Positions 48,236-63,679 of a DNA stretch of 64,000 bases are shown in pieces. Both the position numbers and the translations under genes were made by a program. Position 1 is the first letter of the stretch; each line of letters opens with the position of its first letter. The stretch covers positions 32,001 through 96,000 of the IMG/VR virus record IMGVR_UViG_3300030419_007010; one strand, given 5' to 3'. The notes beneath the pieces are model-generated. The model did not search any database. It worked only from the letters and a program-made list of their open reading frames with translations, and had not been told where the DNA came from. The DNA comes from a virus.

Positions 48236-50035
48236 TTATCTAATTGTGCCCTTAATATCTTTGTTCGGATATCTTAGTTCTATTACTGCATCTTCTGGTG
48301 TTATTAACATCCTACCGTCTGGGGAAAGATTTTGATCAATTCCATATACTGACTCGGAGTAGTTACCTCCAGATTTATTTTTTATTCTCACACTTACCAC
48401 GTCTACGATACCCGGTGTATCATTAATAACATTATATATATCAGTTATATACATCGGTTCTCCCAGATCATAAGGTCTAGAAAATTTATTAGTCAAATTT
48501 ATTATGCACCGATTTAAAAGATCATATTTGTTGACCCCAACATCCGATACTGCTGTAAAGTCTATTCCTATATTAATAACTTTTCCATCCAAAATATCAA
48601 TTGTATCATTAATCATTTTATGCTGATTTAACCAAACTTTTAAATTTTGTTTAATAGTCGCGTTTGCTTTGGTTAAAAATCTATCAGTTCCTTGCATTAA
48701 AACATATAAATTAATATTTCTCTTAAACGAATCATTGTCATGTGTCAAATTACATCTCTTAATAGAACCAAATCTTGCCGGCATTTGGTACACCAAACTA
48801 CTATAGTCTTGCTTTGTTACTGCTCGGTTTTGAGAAGCAAAGAAATCTAGGGCATTTCTTTTTAGTTCTTGAGAATTGGTTGTTAATATGCCGCCTAATA
48901 TTGGTTCTGGATTTGTAACTTCCAGAGAGTCTTTAACTGCGAATTTAGTAGCTGTCGAAATTGCTTCTTTGGAAAATCTAAATATACCTGTCGAAACAGA
49001 ATCCACGGCGCCGGCGGCAGAGTTAACATCGTCTCTATTGTTTGCTCGGTATGTTACAGTCAAGCTAGTATTAGAAGGAGCAATACCAAATTTATCAGAT
49101 TCTAAAATTTTCGAAGGATCGAAATATTTATTAACTTCATAATTTCTTCCGTGTTGTTGCATAACAACTTCACTTGGGTGTCTTACTGAATCTCTGACAT
49201 TTTCTCTATCTGACCCATATCCAAATTGCAAAAATATCTGTGCGCCTTCGCGTTCTACAACATATCTTCTAGGGACAGGAACAGCTTTCAAAATTGATGG
49301 GGCTGTTATTTTGTCTTTATTTCTATTCTTCAGAGCCTTAAACACTATATTTTGTGACAAATAATCCACTTCAAAATATTCATGACCTTCAGAATCCACA
49401 ACCGACATTATTTCTGTCACGTTTCTTACAGGCAATTCTACCTTTAAAAATCTTTCAAAATCGCCAACTGGCAATATTTGTGTTGCTAGCTGTCCGGACA
49501 TTACCTGTCCGCTTGATTTAATCGCAAACTCTGTGGGATATCCGGTCGTTTCATTAACAGTAGCTGGAACGATTTCGTTGTTAGGGTGCGAAAAATCAAT
49601 ATCTTCAACTAAAGTATATTGAACTCCTGAAGTCGACGAAAACGTCGTGCCTTTTCTCAATATTGGTATATAATCTGTGTCCGGGCCTGTGGATTCTGCG
49701 TTGGAGGGTACAATTACGAACACAGAAACTTCCCCATGGGAGGCGATGGCGCCCTCTCTCTTGTATCCCAAAGTTCTAGCATGCTTCAAAATATTTTGAA
49801 ATTCTGTTGCTGTAGACATAAATGTCTCATTAACATTGTAATCCAAATAAAATGATAATATATCACCAACATAAGCAACCGTATCAAACATTAGAGAGGC
49901 GAAACTGGCGTCGTTAAAATCCTTAACAGTGTCAGGATAATATATTTTTGCATATTCAAGCAGTTCTTTCTTAATAGTTTCAAAATCTCTGCTTGTATAA
50001 TCAATTGGTGCTAGCTCTTTAATTTTATTTGCCAT
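48236..50035 (-). CDS. Baseplate wedge protein, T4 gp6-like
   Basis: DYTSRDFETIK...YPD...DF...AYVGDILSFYLD...NETF, LQFG and QNRAVTKQDY motifs. Confidence 0.88.
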   Translation of the reverse strand: MANKIKELAPIDYTSRDFETIKKELLEYAKIYYPDTVKDFNDASFASLMFDTVAYVGDILSFYLDYNVNETFMSTATEFQNILKHARTLGYKREGAIASHGEVSVFVIVPSNAESTGPDTDYIPILRKGTTFSSTSGVQYTLVEDIDFSHPNNEIVPATVNETTGYPTEFAIKSSGQVMSGQLATQILPVGDFERFLKVELPVRNVTEIMSVVDSEGHEYFEVDYLSQNIVFKALKNRNKDKITAPSILKAVPVPRRYVVEREGAQIFLQFGYGSDRENVRDSVRHPSEVVMQQHGRNYEVNKYFDPSKILESDKFGIAPSNTSLTVTYRANNRDDVNSAAGAVDSVSTGIFRFSKEAISTATKFAVKDSLEVTNPEPILGGILTTNSQELKRNALDFFASQNRAVTKQDYSSLVYQMPARFGSIKRCNLTHDNDSFKRNINLYVLMQGTDRFLTKANATIKQNLKVWLNQHKMINDTIDILDGKVINIGIDFTAVSDVGVNKYDLLNRCIINLTNKFSRPYDLGEPMYITDIYNVINDTPGIVDVVSVRIKNKSGGNYSESVYGIDQNLSPDGRMLITPEDAVIELRYPNKDIKGTIR

Positions 50036-50064: not shown

Positions 50065-50466
50065 TTAAACATTATTTATAAACAATGTGTCTGTAACAGA
50101 TAATGGCAAAATATGATATTTTATTTTAATAGATATCATGTGCGGGTCTTGCCAATCTTCCAATATTTTTTGATCGGATCCGGGAGAAAAATCTACATCC
50201 ATAATTTTTATAAATGGCATGTATTTTTCTACTTGAGTTTGTAACGTTGCCGGAAAGTCAAAATGAAAGGTTTCTTTGAATTCAAATAAGAATCTTTTTA
50301 TTCCTACTCCGAATTCAGGATCCATAATTCTTTCTCCTGGATTTGTTAAAACTAAAGTTTTAAAATCTTGTGCAATAGCTTCTTTATAAATCTTAATTAA
50401 CCTATACGGTCCATCTTTTGGATCATAAATTAAAGGTAATTTTGGACTTATCCCGTGAATAGACAT
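50065..50466 (-). CDS. Baseplate wedge protein, gp25-like
   Basis: LVLTNPGERIMDPEFGVGI motif; adjacent to gp6. Confidence 0.9.
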   Translation of the reverse strand: MSIHGISPKLPLIYDPKDGPYRLIKIYKEAIAQDFKTLVLTNPGERIMDPEFGVGIKRFLFEFKETFHFDFPATLQTQVEKYMPFIKIMDVDFSPGSDQKILEDWQDPHMISIKIKYHILPLSVTDTLFINNV

Positions 50467-50497: not shown

Positions 50498-53400
50498 CTA
50501 ACATTCTTCACCTTCTTCGGAAAGTTCTTTTTCTGTTTCTATAGTCTCTACTTCTTCATTTAGCCACTTGTCATAATCATCTCCGAATCCTAACGAAACC
50601 ATTATTAGGTGAATAAACCCTAGAGGCGTAATAGGGGGACCGACGCCCGGGCCCATGGGTGGCGGGGCCCAGCCAATAAATCCTGCACCATATGGAATAG
50701 TTGACGGGAACAGCAAGAAACAGATTATTGGAAGCAAATATGGATCTACTGCTTTCATCGTATTTCTAGTTTTTCTAACAGCCACTCTAAATTCTAAATC
50801 TAACTCAGCTAGTGGATGTATACCCGCTGTCGCATTCTCATATCCCGGCCATGCGCTTCGGCGGGGATCCCCCTCTTGATCAAGAGTTGGTTCTATCCTA
50901 GTTCCTTCCTGGCCGGATTGTCCAGGTAAATAATTGGGTGCTATATAAATTTTTGTTTCTGGCGGCTTAATCCAGTCTTTTTCATTATCATAAAATTGTG
51001 GATAATCTTCTTTAGGATAATTATCTTCGAGAGTTTTTCCGGTCCCGTCGGGAACATCGCCTTTATATTCTCCGTAAAGAAGAGTCAAAGCATCAACCAA
51101 GGCTTGTTTTTTATTTGCCAAATCTTCTTTTAAATCTTGTAATTCTTGTTTTTTAACTTCTTTTTCTACTTGTTGTTCTGCATTAAATGTTGGCATTGCT
51201 TCCACCTGCTGTTCCATAGGTGGAATAGTTTGCTCTATTTGCTTAATTATCATAAAAAGGCCGTCGACTAAGCCCTTGTTAAAATCTACTACAGTCGCAT
51301 GCGCATCGAATGCTGCTTTTTTAACTTCTTCGGCAACTTTAAGAGAAGTTTCAACAATTAATATTATAGCATCGTTAATAGCTTTACCTGTCATAACACA
51401 GGGATCCGTAATTTCGGCCAAGGCTTTCAAAATTAATTTTGGAGTTTCCTTTACAATAGCTTTGAGCTGGTCTTCTAGAGGATTTTCTGGGAATCGACCG
51501 GTTGTAGAAGTGAAGTTTTGCATCTGGCTAAAGCCGACTGGGCCGCCAAAACTATTAATGAAGGGTACTCCGTCCGACAACTTGTCTACATCTCCAAGCA
51601 TATTTCTCATAAATGATAGAATAATTGTCTTTGTTCCGGTAAACTTGCTTAAGTCTTTAATATCAGTATTTGCGTATGAAGCATAAAAAGCATTCAATAA
51701 CAACATTCTTTCGTATTTGAATACATGTTTGAATAAAAATTTAAAATCATCAGACGCATAAAGATTTTTTAAAAGTTTACTATACGCACCAATGGTGCCC
51801 TTATAATACATTGTAACTAACTTATTATCTCCTAGATCACTAATCTTCAAATCCGAAGATTTTGGAGCTAGATCCGCGGCGCGTTCGCACAACTCTTCTG
51901 AAAATTTCCAAACAGGAATTTTTACGTCTGCTAGAGGTATCTTTGTAAACGCGTATCGTTGATTTGCAAGCTCATCCGAACTTTCAGTTTCTGGTGTTCT
52001 ATCTACGGCTCCTAGAAAAGTTTTATGTACCCAAGAAACTCGGCCGATATCTCCTTCATCATAATGATAATCCATGTCGTCCTGTATTTCACCTAAAAGA
52101 TCACATACACCTTTCGCGGTTTGACGAACTAGTGGTGTTTCCGCGCCCACGTATCCATATTTATCATCAGAAAAATAAAGAGGAAATTGATATACTAATC
52201 TTAAACCAAAACAAAAATTATTAAAATAATCATCTACTTTTGAAGTTTCATCTTCAGAAGAGTTTATATACTCTGACATTATTTTGCCCCAAGTATTTAA
52301 ATCAGCGACGCCATATTCATGTATTTTTTCTTTTTTAGCACTAACATTTAAAGAATAGCCAACTACCTCGCCGTTAACTGTAACCTCATTTTCATTAAGA
52401 AGATCCATAAATTTTGGTTTCTTTTTGTTGTATACATCATAAACATTAGCGTCAAGCGTGCTTTCGCCTGCAGTTTCGCTTTCTTTGTGATCAATCCAAA
52501 TATAGGGCTCAAGAACAAACATTCCCGGGTGATCTTTAATCGGCAGATACGCCGAAGATGGGTGTACGCCTGCATCAGAAGTTAAATTGCCACCATTTTT
52601 TTGGTTTGATGGATCCCAAATAATATTTCCTTCATAATCTTCTTGAAGTAGTTTTCTAAAGTCAGCCGAAGGGTTCCAAAACTCATGTCTATCATAGCGT
52701 ACACCTTTATTAATAATATGACTAGGCATAGAGGTGTCAGCTTCTCCAGTCGCGAACTCATTACCGGAACCAAACTTTACTAAATTGGTTACTCCGGCCA
52801 TGGCCGGCCACGTTTTAGAGTTCGTTGCCGGTGATGTAGCAATTGGACCCGGCTCGGTCGACTTATAGCCTCGATCCATCTCACCGACCCATTTAAATAA
52901 ATCCAAATGATTTCTAACTCTTGGAATAAATTTATGTTTCTTTTTATTTGATTTGAACACATTCCAAACAACTTCCACGACTTCTGAATATTCTTGTTTT
53001 AATAAAGTTTTAAACGCGTCGTCGCCGTTGGGCAAAGTGTGTTTTTCGCCCAGGAGATGCATGTGTCCGTCTGCGAATTGAACTAAATAATTTTTAATAA
53101 GGTGAGCATGTCCTGGGTGATCACCTTCTACAATTTCTTTAGCATACCCATTACCTTCCTCGTCGATAACATAAGTATGCACATGGGATATTTCACCATC
53201 AGGAGCGGGGGTCTCAGGGTGCTCTCTTGTTTTTCCGGCGCCGGCGGAAATCGTTTCTTTAATAATCTCTTTTGACTGTTCTAAAATAAACTCAAATATA
53301 TCCGGAACATCTAGCAAAGAGTTTTGTTCTTCTAAAATTGCGTTTTTTATTCTCGCGAAAGTCTGTTCAATAAAGAAATCATCATACAAGAGATTTTTAA

Positions 53401-56400
53401 AATCATATATCGGAATGAGAGGCATAAAATAAAACAATTCTTGAATTATTCCAATTTTTATTCTAGCAGATATTAGGCCGGCTATAGCTGCTTTTTCTAT
53501 TGGCCTTAACTCTCGTCGACTATTTAAACGCGTTTTCTCTCTTTCTTTTAAGTCTCGCATTTGTTTTGACATTGCAGATGCCTGGGAAGCTTCATTTTTT
53601 GCAGCTTCTTTTCTAGGTTTCGTTTTTTTACTCCATTCTTTACAGAGAGCATTTTTTAGCCTTTGATTAATATCTTCTTTAAGAGCATTTATTGTTAAAA
53701 CGCCCTCGCTAAAATCTGGGTTTTCTGGCCAGCAAACTGCAGAATTAGGGAAAAGTTTTCCAAATATTCTTTCAAACGTTTTTAACTCAAATGCAGGAGA
53801 TTGAAGATTAATTTTAGCCATACTCCCTAATATTTTTTGAGTAATGAGCGGATGAGCAAAATTAGTAAAAAAGTCTTGTGACTTTCGTTTCATATTTTCA
53901 CTTAAAGAAACGTCCGGGTATACTTTTTTAATATGATCTTGAATTTTTTGTGTTACAAACTCCCCAAACGCTTTATCCGCAGTGTCGAAATTCAAATCCA
54001 AATTATCTAAAAGAGTTTTATATTCATCTGTGTAGGCAGATTTAAAGTTAATTTCTTTAATTACGTTTGATGAACCGGGAGTATAATCTACAACTCTTCG
54101 ATTGTCTATAACTTTAATATTAAAAGAATCGGCAGGCTCGTTTTCCTGTGTATCGTCGTTTAAAATTTCTAATTGTTTAATTTGATATTTTATAGAACGG
54201 CCAGGGCCGCCGGCTTTAATTAAATCAGGATCATTGTTATTATCTTCAATTTGTTCTAATGTATTAGAAATTATATCTATAGCTTCAGACAGGTTCTGAT
54301 CTCTGGTAGCTAGAAAATCAAATGACTGCGAGTACTTTCGCAATAGTTGGGCAGCTTCTTCATCTTTTCTTGGAATTTTAAGAATATGATAGTTCTCGCC
54401 TTCGACGTCCTTTTCCCAATAAAAATTTTCTTTGTTTTGAAGAGTTTTATAATAATGCGCGAATGTTATAAACTTTCCTAAATTCATAAGTTTGGCAATT
54501 GCGTCGTCTTCACCATCGGGAACTAGTTTTGGAAGCTCGACGATACCGCCATTATCTTCTAGAATACTTTGAGGAAGTGTATTAGGGATAACAAAATCGA
54601 CAGAACCGAGACCTACGAGGGAGAGGTCGGCCGAGCCCCAATTTATTAAATCGTTGTTGGATTTTACTTGACCTACCAAGAGGCTATCAAAAAAGCCACC
54701 TCCTTCAACAACAGAATCTTCTAGTTTTCTGGGAGGAAAAGAAGCTATAGGCAAGAATCCCGGGAGAGGAGAAGCATCAGTAAGAGGATTCCCTTTTGGT
54801 ATAGTCTTAAGAAACTTGGTTTTAACATCATTCTCATCCCAACTTGTATCAAAAGTTACCTCACCAGATAATGCTTCTGGGCGCATCATACCAACCCATT
54901 TTTCTGTTTCGAAACCACTAGCAGCGTTGGTGATATTCAAAAGATCTTCAGGCTTTAGATCTGATAGTAAACTACCAAGACCTCGAAGCTCGCGATAAAA
55001 ACTAATAAGAATATTATCAAATATCGCGTCCATAACAGAATCATTGGCCATTTGAAGGCCAGGAGGAACCCCAGGCATCAAAGCGCCGTCTCCACAATTT
55101 AATGGAGGCATTTTATCATCTAAATATTCGCTAGCGTCTGCTTGTAATAAACCGGCTAAACCTTTGAGCTTATTAAGATCGTTGGCTAGTTGTTCTTTAA
55201 CCTTCTTTGTACATTCATCTTCTGGTAAGCCTGCATCTTTCAGAGCTTGACACTTTTGTTCCGTGCTATATAGATCATTACAGAAATCTTCAGAAACTGT
55301 TACAAATGTTTCAAAATTATCGCAAATTTCTAAATCAAGTTGTGAGCCTAGATCCGAAAAGAAAAATCGTATATCAGACTTTCTAGATAAAGCCGGCATA
55401 TATTCAGGGAAATCTTCCTGAATCAGATCTAATATTGATCCTAAAACAATTTCAGAAGGTTTTCCTTGTAATAAACGACATAATTCTCTAGCCGTTAGCA
55501 TATCTGAAACCTTTCCTAAAAATTCTCGAATTCTATCTGGATGATTGGGAAGATTCCAATTTGCAAAAGCGTCTCTAGGGGGCGGGCCACCTTGCGGGCC
55601 GAAGCCTGGAATTAAGTTTGTAGCTCCGCCAAAGGACTGGCTTTCTTCGTCATCTTCAGCAAAACAATTCTTAAGATAATCATCCAAAACTGCTTTAATT
55701 GTTTTTGCAATTTGTTTTGCCAAGACCGTAACTGTAGCTTTATAGACATCTTTCCAAAATTGATGTGAAATGCCTGCAGGTTCCCAAAAACTTATCGGCT
55801 TGAATGTTGGCCACTCTGGCCACGAAGGCAGCGCTTCACCAAATTCTGGTAAAGAAAAATCTCCACTTAACCATCTTCCTGGTAAGTCCATTCCCATTTT
55901 AACCAAGTCTTCACACAACCTTCTTAAATCGACAAATTCTTTTAATCCTTCGACATATCTTTGAACTTGCTGTGCATTGTCACTCATTGCCCTAGCACCT
56001 GAAGAAATGTAAGATTCTTGGCTTCCTATAGTATCTCCCGCTTGGGCGATAGCTTCAGCTCCGGAAATAATACCATCGGCGACTGCTCCTGGTACTGCGG
56101 CGCCCTCTGCTAATTTACTAGCTGCAACAGGGTCTGGGGCGCCGGATGTAGCAGTCATTAATTCGGTGTTGGTCGCGACAGCCTGACCATAGACTTCTGC
56201 AGAAGAAGCTTCTGGATTATTGGCTGTTACTTCTGTTAGTAGCGCTTGGAATTGTTCATTCTGAACTATCTTTCTAGTTTTTGGATTGCCATACAGAATC
56301 GCAGAGAAGCCGGCGATTCCTATTTCAGTAACAACATAATTAATAATCATCTCGCATATTGCTTCAGGAGTGCTTGGCAAATCATTTTTTTCCAAGATGC

Positions 56401-59131
56401 ACTTAATAATTTCTTCTGCATAAATTTTGATATCAACTTCATTAGCAATTAATTTATAAATCTCGTGAAGTTCCGCTAGTGTTGCAGACAGCGCGGGGTG
56501 TTTTGACAACCAACTAACAGTTTCCTGATCCTTCATTGGATCGCCGACAGCTTCTTGTGAATTTCTTCTTTCTTGTAGAATTATCTCCTTACATTCAGTA
56601 TCTGCTAGAATTCTATTTTCAAACTGTAGTTCTTCTTCAGACATGACAGGAATTCTATCAAACAATTGCATTTTTCTAACACATTCTTCGTATTTTGGAT
56701 CTTTTTTGTTTTTTGAGGGCCTAATCGCTACAATTGGAAATACAAATTTTGATACAAAGTCAATCCACTCGTCAGTCGAAGCAGACTGGCCATCTATGAG
56801 CGCCGTCTCATCTATATCCGCAAATTCAACAGTGATTGTTGCCGGGTATTCATCGCTGACCATTGAGCCGGCAACTGGTGTGCCCGCTTCATTGTAAAAA
56901 CCTTTTGGCCCCGATCTAGTTTCCATATATTCTATTATTCTTTCAGCATAAAGTATAAAAGCCCAAGTTCTTGGAGATACTTTGGTTCTAAGATAATCTA
57001 GCCCAACAATAAAAGGAACTAAATCATTCGGGGGCTCTGGTCTTTCAAACGAAAAATATACAATATTTAATCCAGTGTCTAGTCCAATTTCTAGTTGTGT
57101 ATTATGATTTAAATCAGGTGGTATTGGCATCATCCAATCGGTAACATCCCCTGCTGGCTCTTTAAATTTAATAACCTTGCCGCCCTGGCCTCTGAATTTT
57201 AAAAATTTCTGTATATGTAGTATTGACTCTCTTAAGAGATTTGCTTCTTTTTTGCAGTCCAGCGTTAGTACTTCTCCGCCGGTACTTTTATAAGATTCAA
57301 CGCGGGGATGAAATCTCTCTAATATAGCTGCAACTTGATCAATTTGCTCTATCAAATCTGCAGCAGCACTACGATTGATAGTGTGGATATCCGAACTAGT
57401 TCTTGTTATTTCAGCAGTCAAAGCCCACCACGGCTCGTCTTTGTATTTTACTTCCACGGCTCCGATTGCTTCGTCTTGCCATTCTTTAAGATTTTTATTT
57501 GATAAAGCATCAAACACATTCTGGGGTGCTCCAATCAATACAGAAAGAGGCTTCTTAGAAGGTCGCGTTGAAAGCTCGTATTTAATATAACCGAATGGGC
57601 GCCCATCGGCGCCGGGTCCGTATAGATCATCTGAGACTGAAGTGTCATAATCTTCCACAAGGGAATCTATGTACGCTCTCGTTTGTGAGAACTTTTCTGG
57701 TTCTGGGTTAAGATCTTTACCATAAAATTTTAATAATCTGGCGGCGCCAATATAAACAGCACTCTTTAAATCTTTACTTAAAGCTTCTATTTTCTTATCT
57801 TCTGTTGTTTCTTTTTTGCTACTACTAGGAACATTTACTTTAATAATATAATAATATTCACCCTTCTGGCCTGTATATGGATTAAAATCAACAAAAAGAG
57901 GCTCTTCTTGTTCCAAGATATTGACCCAATTGTCTCCAGAAGTTGATTCAAAAGAAGCTTCGCCAGTAGGTACTACTGGTCCCGGGGGTGGCTCGTTGAC
58001 CTTTAATCTAGGTTTTTCTGTCCCAAATCTAGTTAAGAGGTTTGCATCAATCCACCAGCCAGCATCTTTTAATTTTGGTCCGCCAGGGCCGCCAGTAGTT
58101 GGATTAGATTGAAAACTCTTCCATATAGTCCACCATCTAAATGGGTGTGTAAAATCATGTATATTTTCATTTTTTAGTTCTTCGCCAGTATATGGATTAA
58201 TATAAGACGAATCGAAATATCCTTGTGACTCCAAGACTTTTTGAGGAGGAGCTATTTTACAAAAAGTAGTCCCTTTAATCTTCTTTGATTCAAGAATTTG
58301 TACTTGTGATTTCCAAGGTATAAGAAAATCAACTCCGGCCGGAGCGTCATAAGTCACCCAAATCGTTTCACCTAATTTAGGAAGCTTAGATGATGGATCC
58401 GGACGGCTGTCTGGGTCTAGCTCTGTTTTTAAAAGAGGTAACACTCCGCCAGTCCAGTCTGCTTCCTGTCGATCTGGATGTTCGTATATATGATTGGTTT
58501 TTCTTAAATCCCCTTGTTCATCTGCTGCTGCGATGGCGGCATCAAGATCATCTTCTAGGGCTTCAAAAGCAGCAAGAGAAGCTTCAACATCTTCAATTGT
58601 TTCATCATCGGCGCCGAGATTTGCAAATTCCGGATCTGTATCCGGATGTTTAAGATACATATATTTATGAAAAATATAGTGTGTAGCGCCTTCGAGCTTA
58701 TTAGGGGGCTCATGGTTAACAAGAGCGGGATCATGTGCGGGTCCGGAAGCTTGGTCGGGCGAGTCGGGCGTTTCTATATCGGCAACCGGCGAAGCGTATG
58801 GTAAATGAACTGTATCTCCGACTTTGCCGGCGGTGGCGCCATTAAAATCTTTCCATTCCCCTTGAATAACAATATTATGAAACGGCTTGTGGGGTATGTT
58901 AGTATTCGTGAGATTATAAATCTCCAGCATTGCTTGATATCCCTGGCCCGGGCCGGCTGGAGTATCATTCGGTCCGTTCCAGAAGTTGGGCTCGCTTGCT
59001 TTAATCTTTGAAAAAGGTGGCAATTGCCAAACTCTTTCTACTATTTGAGATAACCCCTCACCCGACTTAATTGTAGTTGTTGGGTCGTTGTTGATGTATT
59101 CTTTACCGTTTATTATTATTTTTGATGGCAT
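50498..59131 (-). CDS. Giant hypothetical virion protein with LysM-like N-terminus (2877 aa)
   Basis: IKSGEGLSQIV...VGDTVHLP at the N-terminus and a His-rich HxH cluster. Lies between the spike gene and gp25. Confidence 0.55.
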   Translation of the reverse strand: MPSKIIINGKEYINNDPTTTIKSGEGLSQIVERVWQLPPFSKIKASEPNFWNGPNDTPAGPGQGYQAMLEIYNLTNTNIPHKPFHNIVIQGEWKDFNGATAGKVGDTVHLPYASPVADIETPDSPDQASGPAHDPALVNHEPPNKLEGATHYIFHKYMYLKHPDTDPEFANLGADDETIEDVEASLAAFEALEDDLDAAIAAADEQGDLRKTNHIYEHPDRQEADWTGGVLPLLKTELDPDSRPDPSSKLPKLGETIWVTYDAPAGVDFLIPWKSQVQILESKKIKGTTFCKIAPPQKVLESQGYFDSSYINPYTGEELKNENIHDFTHPFRWWTIWKSFQSNPTTGGPGGPKLKDAGWWIDANLLTRFGTEKPRLKVNEPPPGPVVPTGEASFESTSGDNWVNILEQEEPLFVDFNPYTGQKGEYYYIIKVNVPSSSKKETTEDKKIEALSKDLKSAVYIGAARLLKFYGKDLNPEPEKFSQTRAYIDSLVEDYDTSVSDDLYGPGADGRPFGYIKYELSTRPSKKPLSVLIGAPQNVFDALSNKNLKEWQDEAIGAVEVKYKDEPWWALTAEITRTSSDIHTINRSAAADLIEQIDQVAAILERFHPRVESYKSTGGEVLTLDCKKEANLLRESILHIQKFLKFRGQGGKVIKFKEPAGDVTDWMMPIPPDLNHNTQLEIGLDTGLNIVYFSFERPEPPNDLVPFIVGLDYLRTKVSPRTWAFILYAERIIEYMETRSGPKGFYNEAGTPVAGSMVSDEYPATITVEFADIDETALIDGQSASTDEWIDFVSKFVFPIVAIRPSKNKKDPKYEECVRKMQLFDRIPVMSEEELQFENRILADTECKEIILQERRNSQEAVGDPMKDQETVSWLSKHPALSATLAELHEIYKLIANEVDIKIYAEEIIKCILEKNDLPSTPEAICEMIINYVVTEIGIAGFSAILYGNPKTRKIVQNEQFQALLTEVTANNPEASSAEVYGQAVATNTELMTATSGAPDPVAASKLAEGAAVPGAVADGIISGAEAIAQAGDTIGSQESYISSGARAMSDNAQQVQRYVEGLKEFVDLRRLCEDLVKMGMDLPGRWLSGDFSLPEFGEALPSWPEWPTFKPISFWEPAGISHQFWKDVYKATVTVLAKQIAKTIKAVLDDYLKNCFAEDDEESQSFGGATNLIPGFGPQGGPPPRDAFANWNLPNHPDRIREFLGKVSDMLTARELCRLLQGKPSEIVLGSILDLIQEDFPEYMPALSRKSDIRFFFSDLGSQLDLEICDNFETFVTVSEDFCNDLYSTEQKCQALKDAGLPEDECTKKVKEQLANDLNKLKGLAGLLQADASEYLDDKMPPLNCGDGALMPGVPPGLQMANDSVMDAIFDNILISFYRELRGLGSLLSDLKPEDLLNITNAASGFETEKWVGMMRPEALSGEVTFDTSWDENDVKTKFLKTIPKGNPLTDASPLPGFLPIASFPPRKLEDSVVEGGGFFDSLLVGQVKSNNDLINWGSADLSLVGLGSVDFVIPNTLPQSILEDNGGIVELPKLVPDGEDDAIAKLMNLGKFITFAHYYKTLQNKENFYWEKDVEGENYHILKIPRKDEEAAQLLRKYSQSFDFLATRDQNLSEAIDIISNTLEQIEDNNNDPDLIKAGGPGRSIKYQIKQLEILNDDTQENEPADSFNIKVIDNRRVVDYTPGSSNVIKEINFKSAYTDEYKTLLDNLDLNFDTADKAFGEFVTQKIQDHIKKVYPDVSLSENMKRKSQDFFTNFAHPLITQKILGSMAKINLQSPAFELKTFERIFGKLFPNSAVCWPENPDFSEGVLTINALKEDINQRLKNALCKEWSKKTKPRKEAAKNEASQASAMSKQMRDLKEREKTRLNSRRELRPIEKAAIAGLISARIKIGIIQELFYFMPLIPIYDFKNLLYDDFFIEQTFARIKNAILEEQNSLLDVPDIFEFILEQSKEIIKETISAGAGKTREHPETPAPDGEISHVHTYVIDEEGNGYAKEIVEGDHPGHAHLIKNYLVQFADGHMHLLGEKHTLPNGDDAFKTLLKQEYSEVVEVVWNVFKSNKKKHKFIPRVRNHLDLFKWVGEMDRGYKSTEPGPIATSPATNSKTWPAMAGVTNLVKFGSGNEFATGEADTSMPSHIINKGVRYDRHEFWNPSADFRKLLQEDYEGNIIWDPSNQKNGGNLTSDAGVHPSSAYLPIKDHPGMFVLEPYIWIDHKESETAGESTLDANVYDVYNKKKPKFMDLLNENEVTVNGEVVGYSLNVSAKKEKIHEYGVADLNTWGKIMSEYINSSEDETSKVDDYFNNFCFGLRLVYQFPLYFSDDKYGYVGAETPLVRQTAKGVCDLLGEIQDDMDYHYDEGDIGRVSWVHKTFLGAVDRTPETESSDELANQRYAFTKIPLADVKIPVWKFSEELCERAADLAPKSSDLKISDLGDNKLVTMYYKGTIGAYSKLLKNLYASDDFKFLFKHVFKYERMLLLNAFYASYANTDIKDLSKFTGTKTIILSFMRNMLGDVDKLSDGVPFINSFGGPVGFSQMQNFTSTTGRFPENPLEDQLKAIVKETPKLILKALAEITDPCVMTGKAINDAIILIVETSLKVAEEVKKAAFDAHATVVDFNKGLVDGLFMIIKQIEQTIPPMEQQVEAMPTFNAEQQVEKEVKKQELQDLKEDLANKKQALVDALTLLYGEYKGDVPDGTGKTLEDNYPKEDYPQFYDNEKDWIKPPETKIYIAPNYLPGQSGQEGTRIEPTLDQEGDPRRSAWPGYENATAGIHPLAELDLEFRVAVRKTRNTMKAVDPYLLPIICFLLFPSTIPYGAGFIGWAPPPMGPGVGPPITPLGFIHLIMVSLGFGDDYDKWLNEEVETIETEKELSEEGEEC

Positions 59132-59141
59132 AATTTATTCT

Positions 59142-60074
59142 TTAATTTGTCTTATTCTTCTTACTCAAAAATGGTCTGTCTTGTGATAACCAGTATATCC
59201 TAAAATTATTAACTGTATTATAAAAATGTTCTATATCCATTTGTGTATCATCTGCTTGTTGAAACATTTTTTGTGGAACTTCAAGAATAGCATCTAGTGA
59301 CGCAAACGTTGGTTTTGCGAAAAAAGGAGAAGGATGATCGTGATGAGCTACAACTTTATTAATAGAAGTTTGATATCTAGTCCAAGTTTGAAAAATAGTA
59401 TTAGCACAATCGATTAAATATAAAATTTCTTCAAACATTAAAGCTAGCTGGTCGCCTTTAACCAGTGGTTCAAGGGCCGCATTTCCCCCGGTTCTGTTGC
59501 CAGCTATCAAGTGAATTCCGCCGATAGTTTCTAATTTACCATTTCTAGAATTAAAACCATCCATTCCTGTCACTAATTTTAAATTCTGCCTCGCCATAAT
59601 TCTAACTTCGTCCGCTTTAATGCCGATCCCGGATACTGCTTTTGGTTTTGGTCGCGGTTTTAAGCCAAAATAATCATCAATATCAGTTTTTTGGCTAATA
59701 TATATTCTTGCTGCATCTCTTTTGAAATCTGGATTTACAAACTGTGTTTCAAAATTAACTTCTCGGCACGGATGTCGGCCGACTACTATATCGATAGATC
59801 CGCATTGAGTATCTCCCTTACCACCATAGCCACTAGCTCTTCCAGATCGACGGTCTCGGCCGACTACTATATAAGCATTGTTTGCATTACTTGAACCTTC
59901 AACAACTTCTTCATAATCTGTTTTAATAAATATTGCGGACTGATCTACCGGTTTTTCTCCTGCAACTCCGCTTAATTTAAGCGTAACTAACTGTTCAGGA
60001 GTTAAATTTTTAAAAGTTACTTTATCTTCAGAAGATAAGCACTCTTGATCAATAGAGGGAATTTTTTTAGTCAT
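59142..60074 (-). CDS. Putative baseplate central spike (gp5 C-terminal / gpV-like) (310 aa)
   Basis: Short beta-strand runs (SIDIVVG, RIYISQ, IGIKADEVRIMAR, IHLIAG), LVKGDQL and an HDH motif. Follows the gp5-like gene. Confidence 0.55.
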   Translation of the reverse strand: MTKKIPSIDQECLSSEDKVTFKNLTPEQLVTLKLSGVAGEKPVDQSAIFIKTDYEEVVEGSSNANNAYIVVGRDRRSGRASGYGGKGDTQCGSIDIVVGRHPCREVNFETQFVNPDFKRDAARIYISQKTDIDDYFGLKPRPKPKAVSGIGIKADEVRIMARQNLKLVTGMDGFNSRNGKLETIGGIHLIAGNRTGGNAALEPLVKGDQLALMFEEILYLIDCANTIFQTWTRYQTSINKVVAHHDHPSPFFAKPTFASLDAILEVPQKMFQQADDTQMDIEHFYNTVNNFRIYWLSQDRPFLSKKNKTN

Positions 60075-60078
60075 TTTA

Positions 60079-62694
60079 TTAAGTAGCTACAGGCTGTTTT
60101 GATGTATCCTTTCCTGCTTCTTCAGCATCCATCTCTTGCGCTAGAGAAAATTTGTAATAGTCTAAAAATACTGTTGCTTTTTTACTCGTATGCTGGCCTT
60201 CATAACCTGCTCCCGGTAAAGAAGCCCATATTTTTCTAATCTTTTTAACTGCCAAAAAAAACTGTTGTTCAAACATGTTAGTTGGTTTTGCTCCAACTTC
60301 TGGAATTGCTTGTATTGTTGGCGGGCGTGTATCTCGACCAGTGCCAAAATCGCGGCCTCCCTGGGCCCATTGTTCCGGAGAGACAAAATTTTCTCCGCCT
60401 TCTTCTAGGATTCTTTTAATACCCTGGCTAGCTAAAAAATTAGCAACACATCTATCTTGATTCAATGGGCTAAAATCATTTTCATCAGAAGTATATAATT
60501 TACCCCATCCCGGTTTACCATTTTTGCCAAACCATGTTCCTTCCATAAACTGATATCTTCCTGCTGCAGTTGAATTATTTTTCCATTCCAGTGATTTTCC
60601 ATTTTCGTCGACTCTTCCAGTAAATCGATCCGACCATTTAAATAAAAGCCTGGGATGTCCGCCTTCATATCCAACAAAAGAATTTCCAACTGGTGATTTT
60701 GGCCCTAAACGAGTCGCTTCATTAGCATTTGTGTATTTCGGTAGGCCATTCTGGGCGCGTTGGAGAACAAAATCTCCTCCTACACATAGTTGGTATGGAC
60801 TAATACCGGAATGAGATTTTCGGCCACCTTCTCCAATAACGATCATTCTCATAAAAGCTCGTATATATTTTGTAGCATTTTTGTTTCCATCTTTTTTAGC
60901 CTCTTCCCAATTAAGGGCCAAAGGCTCAGTTTCATGTCTGTTTTTTGTGTTTCTGGTCCCCGGGGTACAAGGATCACAAGGTACAGGCTTACTAGCTTTA
61001 TCGTCCTCTTCTAACAATTCTTCAATAGCCTCTGCTTCTGCCTGCAGGTTATCTAGTTGCTCAGATACTACAGTTGTGTCTTCTCCCTTTTCTTGCATCT
61101 GCATTAATTGTTCTGTTTTAATATTGATTTCTTCATTTATTTTAGATAATTTTTCAACATATTCTTCTCTTTGTTTAGTAGAAATAGCTTTCGGCATTTT
61201 TTCATATTTTTTTATGTCTCTATCAAGTTCTTTTAATCTTTCTTGATCTCGTTCTGCTTCGGGAAGCTGCAAGATCTCGTCCTTTTCTTTTTTAGCAGCA
61301 AACAAGGCCGCAACTGGGTCTATTGATACTTTTGGAGATTTGCTCGACTGGGGGCCGGGGGCGGCCGATTTAGTAGAAGTTAACGACATTCCTCGCTCTT
61401 CGCTGGCTACTTTTTTAACATACTCCAAAGCAGCCTCTGTTGTTAAGTGTACGCCGTCGCCGCCGGGTGATTGATAGTTTGGTAAATAATGATCTTTTCC
61501 GGCGTAATTATCGTTGGCAGACCCAATTGGATTAATAAAAAATAAAGTTTTATCATATTCTGAAAAAGTTTTTAGAGCTTCTTCAATTACTAAATTAACG
61601 TTTTCTCTATAATTCCAGTATCCAGGCTGATCCCAATCGTGGCGCGGTACTTTGAAACCGGAAGACTTATTTGCAACAGTCGGCGGACACCCGAACCACA
61701 TAACAGTTTTCGATGATCCCAAACATTGTTTTGCTAGATCTATAGTTTTTGTTATAAATTCCTTTTTCCACGCTTTATATCCAGAGCTTCCAGGAGGATT
61801 ACTGGAACCATAATTGCTATTGCCGCCCAGACTAATGATAACCAACTCCGGATTTGTCGCCAGTCCGTCGTCTAAGAAGCCTTTTAATTCAAACCCAGGA
61901 GGATTTGGTTTTAAATCTACAGTTTTCCCTGGTTTTCTCCAGTGCCTCACTGCAGAACCTGATCGGGCCTTTCTTTTTATTGCCCACCCATGATGTTTTA
62001 AATAAGTTTCGAAAACTTGTCCAAACTGGCCTACCATTTGACTGTCACCAAACAAAAAAGCTGAACTATTGCTGCTCTTTGGCTTTAAAGAACCCCTTGG
62101 AGCAGGAAACAAACTAACATCGATTTTTCCGTCGGAGCCGGCCTTTCTTTGCAAACACCCTTGTCCCGGGGCGTATTCAAGGCAATTTCTTGAGCTTCTT
62201 TTAGTTCTTCCAAGGTTTAATCTTCCAGCCTTATCTTCTAGATAATCTTTATAAATAGGAGCATCTAAATTTTCTGCTCCCAAGTGAGAAACCAAAACTC
62301 GATCCCCGACGCGAGGGACGGGTAATCTATTATGTGCTGCCGTATATGTAGGGTGCATATCTATAACATAGTGATCCTTTGGTGAGCGAGGTTCTGAAAT
62401 CTGGGCATGCAATTCTGGGACTCTTACTTTGATTCTAATATGAGTTCTTCTGCGCGGCTGTTCATCGGATGCATCGAGAAAATTATTAGGTTCTGTCGTG
62501 CGACCCTCAACTCTTAGTACTACCCCAATCCAATCAACTCTTTTTGACAAAGCATCAGAAGAATAATGAGATTCCTGAATTTCTCTGGACATATCCTCAT
62601 AAGTGCTTACTTGAGAATCATATCTTGCCCCAAAAGTCTTTTGTGATACCGGATTTAAGTCTCCGTAAGCCGACCAATTGAAACTAAAACTCAC
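60079..62694 (-). CDS. gp5-like hub: OB-fold, SGNH/GDSL esterase and lambda R-type lytic transglycosylase (871 aa)
   Basis: OB-fold GVVLRV...RIKVRVPELH...PRVGDRVLV; SGNH GDS, G, GGN, DGVH; transglycosylase FMRMIVIGEG, STAAGRYQF, FSPLNQD, WASLPG. Confidence 0.8.
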   Translation of the reverse strand: MSFSFNWSAYGDLNPVSQKTFGARYDSQVSTYEDMSREIQESHYSSDALSKRVDWIGVVLRVEGRTTEPNNFLDASDEQPRRRTHIRIKVRVPELHAQISEPRSPKDHYVIDMHPTYTAAHNRLPVPRVGDRVLVSHLGAENLDAPIYKDYLEDKAGRLNLGRTKRSSRNCLEYAPGQGCLQRKAGSDGKIDVSLFPAPRGSLKPKSSNSSAFLFGDSQMVGQFGQVFETYLKHHGWAIKRKARSGSAVRHWRKPGKTVDLKPNPPGFELKGFLDDGLATNPELVIISLGGNSNYGSSNPPGSSGYKAWKKEFITKTIDLAKQCLGSSKTVMWFGCPPTVANKSSGFKVPRHDWDQPGYWNYRENVNLVIEEALKTFSEYDKTLFFINPIGSANDNYAGKDHYLPNYQSPGGDGVHLTTEAALEYVKKVASEERGMSLTSTKSAAPGPQSSKSPKVSIDPVAALFAAKKEKDEILQLPEAERDQERLKELDRDIKKYEKMPKAISTKQREEYVEKLSKINEEINIKTEQLMQMQEKGEDTTVVSEQLDNLQAEAEAIEELLEEDDKASKPVPCDPCTPGTRNTKNRHETEPLALNWEEAKKDGNKNATKYIRAFMRMIVIGEGGRKSHSGISPYQLCVGGDFVLQRAQNGLPKYTNANEATRLGPKSPVGNSFVGYEGGHPRLLFKWSDRFTGRVDENGKSLEWKNNSTAAGRYQFMEGTWFGKNGKPGWGKLYTSDENDFSPLNQDRCVANFLASQGIKRILEEGGENFVSPEQWAQGGRDFGTGRDTRPPTIQAIPEVGAKPTNMFEQQFFLAVKKIRKIWASLPGAGYEGQHTSKKATVFLDYYKFSLAQEMDAEEAGKDTSKQPVAT

Positions 62695-62696
62695 TA

Positions 62697-62999
62697 TTAA
62701 TCCTCCGATTTATTGATCAAATCAAAAATATCTTCCTTGTCTTGAGAAGTTAAACCGTCTTTCGTAGCAGTTCTTTTGTGTACCAAGCCAGCTATCTTTA
62801 CTAGTTGTTCATTTGATCTTTGAAGAGTCTCTAAATACTTCGAAGCAACTTGGCCAAGCTCCTTATGATCATAATTATTGTTCATACTTTTCATAAGGTC
62901 TGTTAATAAAGTTAAAGCCAGCGCCCTATCATTTTCGATATTCTCGCTGGCTGAAGTTATATATCCATCGATATCTTTTATGTTTTTCCCTCGTCCCAT
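62697..62999 (-). CDS. Hypothetical protein (100 aa)
   Basis: Helical ORF overlapping the end of the sigma gene. Confidence 0.6.
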   Translation of the reverse strand: MGRGKNIKDIDGYITSASENIENDRALALTLLTDLMKSMNNNYDHKELGQVASKYLETLQRSNEQLVKIAGLVHKRTATKDGLTSQDKEDIFDLINKSED

Positions 63000-63679
63000 T
63001 TTCTTTTAAACGTCCTATACTTTGATCTTATTTTATTAAGATTATTAACAACTTGCTTTGTATTAAGACCAGTTATTTCCCTAATGTATAGATAAATAGC
63101 TTTTTTATTAAAAATTTCGATTTCATCAACAGTTTCGAAAAGTATCTTTACTGCTTCAAGCACTTTTTTTTCATTATCTTTTAATTTTAAGTTATCCCAA
63201 GAATTAATTTCTTTCCAAAGATGTTGCCAAAATTCAAAATGTTCTCGATCGCTTTCATATGGATGATCAATGGAAAAGTGTTTTTGATGTACATCTCCGG
63301 AGATCTCTTCATATTGAACTTCTCGCTGGAGATTTCTGCTGTTTCTTTTTACCTTATGAATAAACCAATTCTTTGTAATAACACTGAAATAGGAAAATGC
63401 TTTTGACTTCTTCGACGGATCATACTTGTCCAAGATAGTCATAAGCCATACTTTACATTCTTCTTTAAGACTGTCTATATTTGGTAGATTCGTGAACTTA
63501 TATGTATAGACAATCTTATCAACCATTTCGTTAAAAGCCGGCTCTATATACAATACATAAAGTTCTGTTCTTACTTTATTATCTTCAGTTGAAGCATATT
63601 GAATAATTGCTTCTTCATGAACTTTTACAAAATAGTTATTTTTTTTAGGCTTCTTCGTCTTCTTCTGGCTCGTTGTCAT
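62978..63679 (-). CDS. Phage sigma factor, T4 gp55-like late transcription factor
   Basis: NNYF...AIIQY, and region-2-like LDKYDPSKKSKAFSYFSVITKNWF. Sits at the head of the structural gene cluster. Confidence 0.7.
   Translation of the reverse strand: MTTSQKKTKKPKKNNYFVKVHEEAIIQYASTEDNKVRTELYVLYIEPAFNEMVDKIVYTYKFTNLPNIDSLKEECKVWLMTILDKYDPSKKSKAFSYFSVITKNWFIHKVKRNSRNLQREVQYEEISGDVHQKHFSIDHPYESDREHFEFWQHLWKEINSWDNLKLKDNEKKVLEAVKILFETVDEIEIFNKKAIYLYIREITGLNTKQVVNNLNKIRSKYRTFKRKWDEGKT

What the first reader, a model, noticed from the sequence alone, without database searches (positions are those of the whole stretch)
60079..62694. Tail hub fusing an SGNH esterase to a lytic transglycosylase: possible counter to peptidoglycan O-acetylation
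Seen: a gp5/VgrG-like OB-fold, then a complete SGNH set (GDS near 62045, G, GGN, DGVH near 61450), a coiled-coil linker, and a lambda R-type domain with the catalytic Glu position intact (IGEG; STAAGRYQF; WASLPG). Established: lytic transglycosylases need a free MurNAc C6-OH to form 1,6-anhydro products, so 6-O-acetylation blocks them, and bacterial Ape esterases that remove this group are SGNH enzymes. Inference: the tail tip carries a two-step de-acetylate-then-cut enzyme. An alternative substrate is O-acetylated LPS or capsule.
Basis: partly seen in the sequence, partly recalled or inferred. Interest (0 to 1): 0.8.

Follow-up and report, generated by a model that had tools for sequence, protein, structure and literature searches.

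The report
Tail-hub esterase fused to wall cutter
An uncultured T4-like phage carries on its tail-hub protein an acetyl-esterase-type domain, closest to the bacterial enzymes that handle acetyl groups on the cell wall, followed by a lambda-type wall-cutting enzyme. Related phages keep the same pair fused, split into neighbouring genes or matched with other sugar-chain cutters, which supports but does not prove that the esterase removes acetyl groups that would block the cut.

Summary
Window 60079-62694 (-) is one 871-aa ORF in the baseplate region of a 161.7-kb T4-like virus contig. It has four parts:
- a gp5-type OB domain (1-165);
- an SGNH domain (195-445) with invariant GDSQ (S218), GGN (N292) and DGVH (D413/H416);
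- a coiled-coil linker (446-590);
- a lambda-R/GH104 lytic transglycosylase (591-871), with profile E=2e-33 to PDB 1am7 and the catalytic Glu position kept (E622).

The de-acetylate-then-cut reading stays an inference, but comparative evidence strengthens it.
- The SGNH domain is nearest to DUF459/PatB, the peptidoglycan O-acetyl family, by best Pfam hit, top structural match and ESM Atlas shape search. Each line discriminates weakly.
- Among 116 representative hubs that share this OB domain, SGNH goes with glycan-cutting domains in 8 of 9 classified cases. Hubs without SGNH do so in 12 of 62 (naive Fisher p=9e-5; the phylogeny-corrected test had no power).
- A relative encodes OB, SGNH and LT as three adjacent genes in the same order. 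Another has an SGNH gene directly before an OB-LT gene.

Exceptions exist: SGNH hubs with a peptidase or a possible peptidase. The host is unknown. Earlier follow-ups in this scan reported an SGNH nested inside a lambda-type transglycosylase on other phage DNA. I class this as a new variant of a known kind, with no biochemical test.

The parts
60079..62694 (-). Whole gene: 871-aa tail-hub protein (OB - SGNH - coiled coil - GH104 LT), GTG start, stop at 60079-60081
62200..62694 (-). Residues 1-165: gp5-type OB-fold anchor domain
   Evidence: Five-strand barrel in the model. ESM Atlas feature score 0.96 to a Gp5_OB cluster and TM about 0.5 to Gp5_OB/Phage_base_V clusters. hhalign places residues 80-150 on T4 gp5 19-98 in register, weak at E=0.032.
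61360..62112 (-). Residues 195-445: SGNH domain, DUF459/PatB-like; S218 nucleophile, N292, D413, H416
   Evidence: Pfam DUF459 6.2e-5 and Lipase_GDSL_2 2.2e-3, both below the curated cut-off. Foldseek and VIA-align SGNH fold, top CjPatB 8gr2 at Z 16.3. Atlas top three rows are DUF459. Catalytic columns invariant.
60925..61359 (-). Residues 446-590: charged helical (coiled-coil) linker ending in the invariant CDPC motif (573-576)
   Evidence: Composition, weak coiled-coil PDB hits, conservation. Not folded.
60082..60924 (-). Residues 591-871: lambda-R type (GH104) lytic transglycosylase with two insertions; catalytic Glu position E622
62697..62999 (-). Conserved 100-aa gene directly upstream, syntenic with the hub gene in relatives; function unknown
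   Evidence: Synteny in L003, L004, L006 and L009. phmmer 4.9e-27 to the L009 95-aa gene. No Pfam or PHROG hit.
59142..60074 (-). Conserved 310-aa gene directly downstream; possible central spike (an idea from sequence motifs only)
   Evidence: The 311-aa gene in L003 sits in the same position. Its sequence resembles the 324-aa gene after the LT gene in L009 by eye only; phmmer did not pair it with the L009 310-aa gene and the 324-aa gene was not in that comparison. No Pfam, PHROG or PDB hit.

Best explanation
This is the cell-wall-digesting subunit of the tail hub of an uncultured T4-like myovirus. It is the counterpart of T4 gp5* (OB domain plus lysozyme), but its enzyme part is built from two modules. 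The OB domain anchors the protein in the baseplate hub. After sheath contraction carries the hub through the outer membrane, the two enzyme domains reach the peptidoglycan. The PatB/DUF459-like SGNH domain (Ser218-His416-Asp413 triad, Asn292 oxyanion hole) takes the 6-O-acetyl group off MurNAc and gives it to water. The C-terminal lambda-type lytic transglycosylase (Glu622) needs that free C6-OH to form the 1,6-anhydro bond and then cuts the glycan strand, opening a local hole for the tail tube. Shown here: the domain identities, the conserved catalytic residues, the baseplate context, and the recurrent genetic linkage of this SGNH type with glycan-cutting domains. Inferred: virion location, the peptidoglycan O-acetyl substrate, the hydrolytic direction, and the order of action.
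For: Context: gp25 and gp6 wedge genes, a gp55-like sigma factor, portal and TerL lie in the window.

LT domain: 1am7 at E=2e-33 with the Glu aligned and a matching fold. A cyanophage hub, A-1(L) gp15 (8kea), carries the same domain type.

SGNH domain: complete and invariant catalytic set. The nearest family by three routes is DUF459, which is PatB, the peptidoglycan O-acetyltransferase acting on MurNAc C6 (PMC9487903). The routes are: best Pfam hit, precomputed PF04311 on homologues, top VIA-align match CjPatB at Z 16.3 with NgPatB 14.9, NmApe1 14.7, CjApe1 14.2 and OatA 13.3 close behind, and the top three ESM Atlas shape rows, which are 100% DUF459.

Survey of 116 OB-hub representatives: 8 of 9 classified SGNH hubs carry a glycan cutter. 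These are GH104 LT in 1, GH108 muramidase in 3 and phi6-P5-like LT in 4. Only 12 of 62 classified hubs without SGNH do so (Fisher p=8.9e-5; p=3.3e-4 if P0009 is counted as a peptidase).

Gene fission: in L009 and L010 the order is sigma, 95 aa, OB gene, SGNH gene (P0070), coiled-coil-LT gene (P0054). In L013 an SGNH fragment lies just upstream of the OB-LT gene P0084. P0013 is a positional orthologue with a muramidase in place of the LT.

Established knowledge: LTs need a free MurNAc C6-OH, and peptidoglycan O-acetylation occurs in Bacteroidota and other Gram-negatives (PMC1199599).
Against: - There is no biochemical evidence.
- The host is unknown. TerL is only 43% identical to Flavobacterium and Microcystis phages, so whether the host wall is O-acetylated cannot be checked.
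- PatB is a transferase, not an esterase.
- The DUF459 score (22.9 bits) is below Pfam's cut-off (27.2), and the hit covers mainly the Block III region.
- The family profile did not list the PatB chains among PDB sequence hits.
- Structural Z scores for PatB and Ape are tied within 1-2 units with generic GDSL esterases.
- The association is not exclusive. P0105 pairs a divergent SGNH with an M15_3 peptidase. P0024 adds an amidase. P0009 and the 804-aa tandem paralogue in L004 carry an unassigned, possibly M15-like C-terminus.
- The phylogenetically controlled test had no power, with 1 independent pair on supported branches.
- 40 of 116 hubs are unclassified.
- The P5-like LT assignment is weak: PDB 4dq5 E=0.1, Pfam Peptidase_U40 0.022 and Transglycosylas 0.0074, plus motifs.
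Confidence: 0.55

Rival explanations
1. The SGNH domain acts on another acylated envelope component met during penetration, such as O-acetylated LPS, capsule or exopolysaccharide, or outer-membrane lipids or lipoproteins. The LT acts on peptidoglycan independently of it.
For: SGNH domains on phage tailspikes and fibres that de-acetylate surface polysaccharides are common. G7C gp63.1 (4qnl) aligns at Z 12.7, and many tailspike esterases appear in BFVD. Structural scores do not separate carbohydrate esterases, lipases and peptidoglycan enzymes. SGNH also occurs on hubs whose other enzyme is a peptidase.
Against: The domain sits on the central hub between the OB anchor and a periplasm-acting LT, not on a peripheral fibre. 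Its nearest family by three routes is DUF459/PatB. It is enriched with glycan cutters and stays next to the LT when the gene is split.
Confidence: 0.25
2. The domain works in the PatB direction, as an acetyltransferase that O-acetylates peptidoglycan around the entry site. This could limit further lysis or exclude other phages' lysozymes.
For: The nearest family is the PatB transferase (PMC9487903).
Against: No acetyl donor partner (PatA/MBOAT) and no membrane anchor are part of the protein. Acetylating the substrate would block the fused LT. PatB-type enzymes hydrolyse esters when water is the acceptor (PMC9487903).
Confidence: 0.07
3. The protein is a soluble endolysin used at the end of infection, not a virion hub component.
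For: The best PHROG hit of the LT part is an 'endolysin' family (phrog_90). Lambda R itself is an endolysin.
Against: It has an N-terminal gp5-type OB domain and is 871 aa long with a coiled coil. It lies among baseplate genes in conserved synteny. The same OB domain is fused to many different wall hydrolases, as expected for tail lysins.
Confidence: 0.05
4. The SGNH domain is catalytically idle and serves as a glycan-binding or structural spacer.
For: The Block II glycine is not strictly conserved: RSGS here, GLGSS and GVSSS in P0004 and P0005. Some distant members (P0038, P0009) look degenerate.
Against: Ser, Asn, Asp and His are invariant across 12 members that are 25-55% identical.
Confidence: 0.05

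Closest known systems
Phage T4 gp5 (tail-associated lysozyme of the baseplate hub)
   Same: An N-terminal OB domain is followed by a peptidoglycan glycan-strand-cleaving enzyme. The gene lies in a T4-like baseplate gene region.
   Different: The enzyme is a GH104 LT, not a GH24 lysozyme. An SGNH domain and a coiled coil are inserted between the OB domain and the enzyme. This ORF has no C-terminal beta-helix. The Pfam models Gp5_OB and Phage_base_V do not detect the OB domain.
Phage lambda R endolysin (GH104 lytic transglycosylase; PDB 1am7, 3d3d)
   Same: The sequence profile matches at E=2e-33. The catalytic Glu and the AGRYQ and WASLPGAGYGQ motifs are kept, and the fold is the same.
   Different: The domain here is about 280 aa with two insertions. 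It is part of a virion hub protein and is fused to an esterase.
Cyanophage A-1(L) hub gp15 (PDB 8kea; PMC10966104)
   Same: A myovirus hub that carries a lambda-type lysozyme domain together with other wall hydrolase domains.
   Different: It is a gp27-type barrel hub, and its partner domains are an endoglucanase-like and a peptidase domain. It has no SGNH domain.
PatB/DUF459 (PF04311) peptidoglycan O-acetyltransferase B, and Ape1 O-acetylpeptidoglycan esterase
   Same: SGNH fold and catalytic machinery. They are the nearest Pfam family and the nearest solved and predicted structures. Their substrate site, MurNAc C6, is the one that matters to an LT.
   Different: The score is below Pfam's cut-off. 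There is no membrane anchor and no PatA partner, and the proposed direction is hydrolysis. The inserted beta-sandwich domain of Ape1 is absent.
Staphylococcus phage phi11 Gp44 / 80alpha gp59 Tal (PMC4876445, PMC7048315)
   Same: A tail-tip hub protein fused to an SGNH/GDSL esterase domain of untested activity.
   Different: It belongs to a siphovirus of a Gram-positive host, is a gp27-like hub with no OB domain, and has no glycan cutter in the same chain.

Membership tests
GH104 / lambda R lytic transglycosylase | Sequence similarity to lambda R across the domain | tested here: met
   Profile A4 against PDB: 1am7 at E=2e-33, covering residues 5-147 of 158
GH104 / lambda R lytic transglycosylase | Catalytic Glu (lambda Glu19) conserved | tested here: met
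   E622 aligns with the Glu of lambda WSEGT and is nearly invariant in 23 sequences
GH104 / lambda R lytic transglycosylase | Lambda lysozyme fold | tested here: met
   Foldseek hit 3d3d at E=8.8e-4 with TM 0.73 by target; model pLDDT 83
GH104 / lambda R lytic transglycosylase | Produces 1,6-anhydroMurNAc ends | not testable with these tools
   Needs a muropeptide analysis
SGNH hydrolase superfamily | Block I Ser, Block III Asn and Block V Asp-x-x-His | tested here: met
   GDSQ (S218), GGN (N292) and DGVH (D413/H416), invariant in 12 members
SGNH hydrolase superfamily | Block II Gly | tested here: inconclusive
   RSGS at 244-247 here, but the column varies in P0004 and P0005
SGNH hydrolase superfamily | Three-layer alpha/beta/alpha SGNH fold | tested here: met
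   VIA-align Z 12-16 over about 185 residues to many SGNH chains; Foldseek E down to 1e-8
DUF459 / PatB (PF04311) | Score above Pfam's gathering cut-off | tested here: not met
   22.9 bits against a cut-off of 27.2, over profile positions 58-123 only. 8 of 91 family members match, with best E=2.2e-9
DUF459 / PatB (PF04311) | Closest structural neighbours are PatB/DUF459 | tested here: inconclusive
   CjPatB is top at Z 16.3 but tied within 1-2 units with generic esterases. The top three Atlas rows are DUF459 at TM about 0.5 by row
DUF459 / PatB (PF04311) | N-terminal membrane anchor and a PatA (MBOAT) partner | tested here: not met
   The domain is internal to a hub protein, with an OB domain upstream. 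A PatA gene was not searched for in the phage genome
Ape1 O-acetylpeptidoglycan esterase | SGNH domain with an inserted beta-sandwich (CBM35-like) domain | tested here: not met
   The domain is about 240 aa. Only about 190 of 350-365 Ape1 residues align, and the model has no extra domain
T4 gp5 family | Gp5-type OB fold at the N-terminus | tested here: inconclusive
   ESM Atlas score 0.96 and TM about 0.5, and a weak in-register hhalign match. No match from Pfam, PHROGs or PDB sequence searches, nor from a profile search of the T4 genome
T4 gp5 family | GH24 lysozyme domain and C-terminal beta-helix (Gp5_C) | tested here: not met
   The enzyme domain is GH104, and the protein ends with it

The most novel reading that the evidence does not exclude
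A PatB-type domain, from the family bacteria use to put O-acetyl groups on peptidoglycan, has been adopted by a lineage of uncultured T4-like phages and runs as a virion-borne de-O-acetylase. Together with a glycan cutter it forms a mobile two-step cassette found fused, split into adjacent genes, and paired with GH104, GH108 or phi6-P5-like cutters. This would be the first phage entry device aimed at peptidoglycan O-acetylation.
Probability: 0.45. Interest if true: 0.75.

Novelty: new variant of a known kind. Interest (0 to 1): 0.62.

Why it matters
O-acetylation of peptidoglycan is a widespread way for bacteria to resist lysozymes and to control lytic transglycosylases. I found no paper showing that a phage removes it. 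The closest were untested SGNH domains on Staphylococcus phage Tal proteins and in-silico suggestions. If the esterase de-acetylates the wall, O-acetylation would be shown to act as a barrier to phage entry and this cassette as the counter-measure. It would also supply a natural 'esterase plus cutter' design for enzymes that lyse lysozyme-resistant bacteria. The domains are small, separable and easy to assay, so the question can be tested directly even though the phage is uncultured.

Tried and rejected
- tblastn of the whole protein, of the OB domain (E up to 1) and of the 8-kb DNA against 50,697 phage records gave no match. tblastn with a VanY-type OB hub (P0018) hit only the VanY part. The OB family is therefore not seen in cultured phages by these searches.
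- Pfam Gp5_OB and Phage_base_V against the phage's own genome gave nothing.
- The OB profile against PDB, PHROGs, the T4 genome, and Flavobacterium phage immuto and Microcystis phage Mel-JY01 gave nothing. The genome searches had no positive control.
- The C-terminal domains of the SGNH hubs P0008, P0009, P0038 and P0081, and of the L004 804-aa paralogue, could not be assigned by Pfam, PHROGs or PDB. An ESM Atlas lead for P0008 points to a TIM-barrel, glycoside-hydrolase-like domain. hhalign of the P0009/804-aa type against VanY gave E=0.048, not significant.
- The phylogenetically independent contrast test had no power.
- Word-indexed searches with the SGNH region or its profile added almost nothing.
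- Neighbour checks of six other hubs were limited by short contigs.
- The T4 late-promoter motif TATAAATA is not enriched: 6 found against 7.2 expected.
- psbA is absent, so there is no sign of a cyanophage.
- The 310-aa downstream gene has no PDB sequence match.
Full report
**Gene and context.** Window 60079-62694 (-) is a single 871-aa ORF with a GTG start. The window is bases 32001-96000 of a 161.7-kb IMG/VR virus contig. The surrounding genes identify a T4-like myovirus:
- gp25 (50065-50466) and gp6 (48236-50035) wedge proteins;
- a gp55-like late sigma factor (62978-63679);
- portal, TerL, tail fibres and a fused Mre11-Rad50.

TerL is only 43% identical to its best cultured matches, Flavobacterium phage immuto and Microcystis phage Mel-JY01. 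psbA is absent. The host is therefore unknown.

Only five close homologues of the protein exist in 5.8 billion clustered proteins, at 55-70% identity and all from metagenomes.

**LT domain (591-871).** A single-sequence search already touched lambda lysozyme weakly. A 23-sequence profile hits 1am7 at E=2e-33 over almost the whole lambda enzyme. E622 aligns with the catalytic Glu, and the AGRYQ and WASLPGAGYGQ motifs are kept. The AlphaFold model (pLDDT 83) matches 3d3d with TM 0.73 by target. The next hit is the hub gp15 of cyanophage A-1(L) (8kea), whose residues 56-265 were called a lysozyme domain by its authors. A lambda-type cutter on a myovirus hub is therefore known.

**SGNH domain (195-445).** Pfam gives DUF459 (6.2e-5) and Lipase_GDSL_2 (2.2e-3), both under the curated cut-offs. 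The model of residues 1-450 (pLDDT 78.6) has an SGNH fold. In a search that aligns every PDB cluster representative, the top chain is Campylobacter PatB (8gr2, Z 16.3). Close behind are:
- Neisseria PatB, Z 14.9;
- Neisseria Ape1, Z 14.7;
- Campylobacter Ape1, Z 14.2;
- OatA, Z 13.3.

Generic GDSL esterases are interleaved with these, within 1-2 Z units. The ESM Atlas shape search returns three DUF459 clusters first.

DUF459 is the PatB family, the peptidoglycan O-acetyltransferase of Gram-negative bacteria. It uses the ordinary SGNH acyl-enzyme mechanism and hydrolyses esters slowly when water is the acceptor (PMC9487903). Three partly independent routes thus point to the enzyme family that works on MurNAc C6, but none of them is discriminating on its own. 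The family profile did not list the PatB chains among PDB sequence hits. GDSQ, N292, D413, G414 and H416 are invariant in 12 members that are only 25-55% identical.

**OB domain (1-165).** No Pfam, PHROG or PDB sequence search recognises it. The model shows a five-strand barrel. hhalign places residues 80-150 on T4 gp5 residues 19-98 in the expected register, weakly (E=0.032). ESM Atlas gives a feature score of 0.96 to a 'Gp5 N-terminal OB' cluster and TM about 0.5 to Gp5_OB/Phage_base_V clusters.

An exhaustive phmmer search of 1.84 billion representatives found 134 relatives. With the query and its close homologues, 120 proteins in the set share this domain. The parts after the OB domain carry VanY (32 of 106), Amidase_2 (15), GH108 muramidase (14), other M15 peptidases, GH25 and SLT. 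This is the picture expected of a tail-lysin anchor domain.

I classified the hubs with in-session jackhmmer profiles seeded from Pfam-labelled members. There are 116 representatives. P0001-P0004 were dropped, so P0005 stands for the query's cluster.

| Group | Glycan cutter | Peptidase or amidase only | Unclassified or none |
|---|---|---|---|
| SGNH hubs (14) | 8 | 1 | 5 |
| Hubs without SGNH (102) | 12 | 50 | 40 |

- The 8 glycan cutters on SGNH hubs are GH104 LT (1), GH108 muramidase (3, one of which also has an amidase) and a domain I read as phi6-P5-like LT (4).
- The P5-like reading rests on ES...GYSGLW...HQQG motifs, PDB 4dq5 at E=0.1, and Pfam Peptidase_U40 (0.022) and Transglycosylas (0.0074).
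- The single peptidase-only case is P0105, which has an M15_3 peptidase and a divergent GTS-type SGNH.
- Of the 5 unclassified SGNH hubs, P0101 shows an SLT-like MQSESGG motif. P0008 has a TIM-barrel, glycoside-hydrolase-like lead.

The naive Fisher test gives p=8.9e-5, or 3.3e-4 if P0009 is counted as a peptidase. On the OB tree, SGNH hubs fall in several lineages; supported branches force at least 2 changes and the best tree needs 8. The independent-contrast test found only one pair on supported branches and has no power. The association is therefore suggestive, not proven.

**Gene order.** P0013 (OB-SGNH-muramidase) sits behind the same 233-aa sigma and 100-aa genes as the window's gene, so it is a positional orthologue with a different cutter.

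In L009 and L010 the same module reads as follows:
1. sigma factor (1.8e-86 to the window's);
2. a 95-aa gene (4.9e-27 to the window's 100-aa gene);
3. a 402-aa gene with a divergent OB domain and no enzyme;
4. a 229-aa stand-alone SGNH (P0070) with a complete catalytic set;
5. a 310-aa coiled-coil plus lambda-type LT (P0054);
6. by eye, a relative of the window's downstream 310-aa gene.

The gaps between these genes are 2 and 16 nt. The three domains of the window's protein thus occur as three neighbouring genes in the same order.

In L013 the only 'OB-LT without SGNH' hub (P0084) has the C-terminal half of an SGNH gene directly upstream, at E=5.8e-14. Earlier follow-ups in this scan reported a further arrangement on other DNA, an SGNH nested inside a lambda-type LT on a phage spike. 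I did not re-test that.

**Counter-evidence.** The 804-aa gene after P0013 in L004 and L006 is a tandem hub paralogue with OB, SGNH and an unassigned C-terminus that it shares with P0030. By eye P0009 carries similar AMDF and VH[YF]DF motifs. The domain may be M15-like, and no PDB match was found. SGNH is therefore not restricted to glycan cutters.

**Mechanism.** The best reading is a gp5*-like hub subunit whose PatB-like esterase frees MurNAc C6-OH for the fused LT. I put this at about 0.55. Peptidoglycan O-acetylation has been measured in Bacteroidota and several Proteobacteria, and OAP gene clusters were also reported in a cyanobacterium (PMC1199599), so the target is plausible for a Gram-negative host. 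The host itself is unidentified. The rivals are given with their weights in the rival-explanations section: another acylated envelope substrate, the transferase direction, a soluble endolysin, and an idle domain.

**Novelty.** Hub-borne lambda-type cutters are known (A-1(L) gp15). Hub-borne SGNH domains of untested function are known (phi11 Gp44 and 80alpha gp59). The idea that phage SGNH proteins may de-O-acetylate peptidoglycan has been raised in silico (PMC9862828). Four things appear new:
- the OB-SGNH-LT chain in a T4-like hub;
- its PatB-like affinity;
- its split-gene counterpart;
- the family-wide bias towards glycan cutters.

I class it as a new variant of a known kind, with interest about 0.6.

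Noticed in passing
window 59142-60074 (-): The 310-aa gene directly downstream of the hub gene is conserved in position: a 311-aa gene in L003, and by eye the 324-aa gene after the LT gene in L009. It contains repeat-like segments and an HHDHPSPFF motif, which recalls the HxH iron-binding apex of gpV/gp138 spikes. It might supply the beta-helix spike that this gp5-like protein lacks. It has no Pfam, PHROG or PDB sequence match.
   Followed up: partly
window 62697-62999 (-): A 100-aa gene always precedes the hub gene in relatives (L003, L004, L006, L009), and its first 22 nt overlap the end of the gp55-like sigma gene. It has no family match and its function is unknown.
   Followed up: partly
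window 60967-60978 (-), residues 573-576: A CDPC motif at the end of the coiled coil is invariant in all six homologues, within a conserved KPxPCDPCxP stretch. It could be a metal or disulphide site at the junction with the LT domain.
   Followed up: no
L004:3148-5562 and L006:4131-6545: These loci carry tandem hub paralogues. Right after the OB-SGNH-muramidase hub P0013 lies an 804-aa gene with its own OB and SGNH domains and a different, unassigned C-terminal domain that it shares with P0030. P0009 shows similar motifs by eye.
   Followed up: partly
L012:1428-3605 (protein P0107): A gene in a bacterial context, next to RelA/SpoT and GAPDH, encodes Metallophos plus a lambda-type LT. It then ends in about 85 residues that begin like an SGNH Block I (LYIGDSHVAG). 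It may be a truncated or frameshifted LT-SGNH fusion.
   Followed up: no
window 18797-21946 (-): A single 1049-aa ORF matches both the SbcD/Mre11-like (phrog_100, N-terminal) and SbcC/Rad50-like (phrog_77) families. The T4 gp47 and gp46 functions appear to be fused in one gene.
   Followed up: no
window 50498-59131 (-) and 35982-46697 (-): Giant ORFs of 2877 and 3571 aa lie between the hub gene and the gp25/gp6 wedge genes and beyond them. The 2877-aa protein has no Pfam match at E up to 0.01.
   Followed up: no
OB domain family (alignment A6): The 80 aligned hub-anchor domains had no PHROG v4 match, and tblastn with two of them (P0001, P0018) found no OB match in 50,697 deposited phage genomes. 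The family appears to belong to uncultured phages only.
   Followed up: partly
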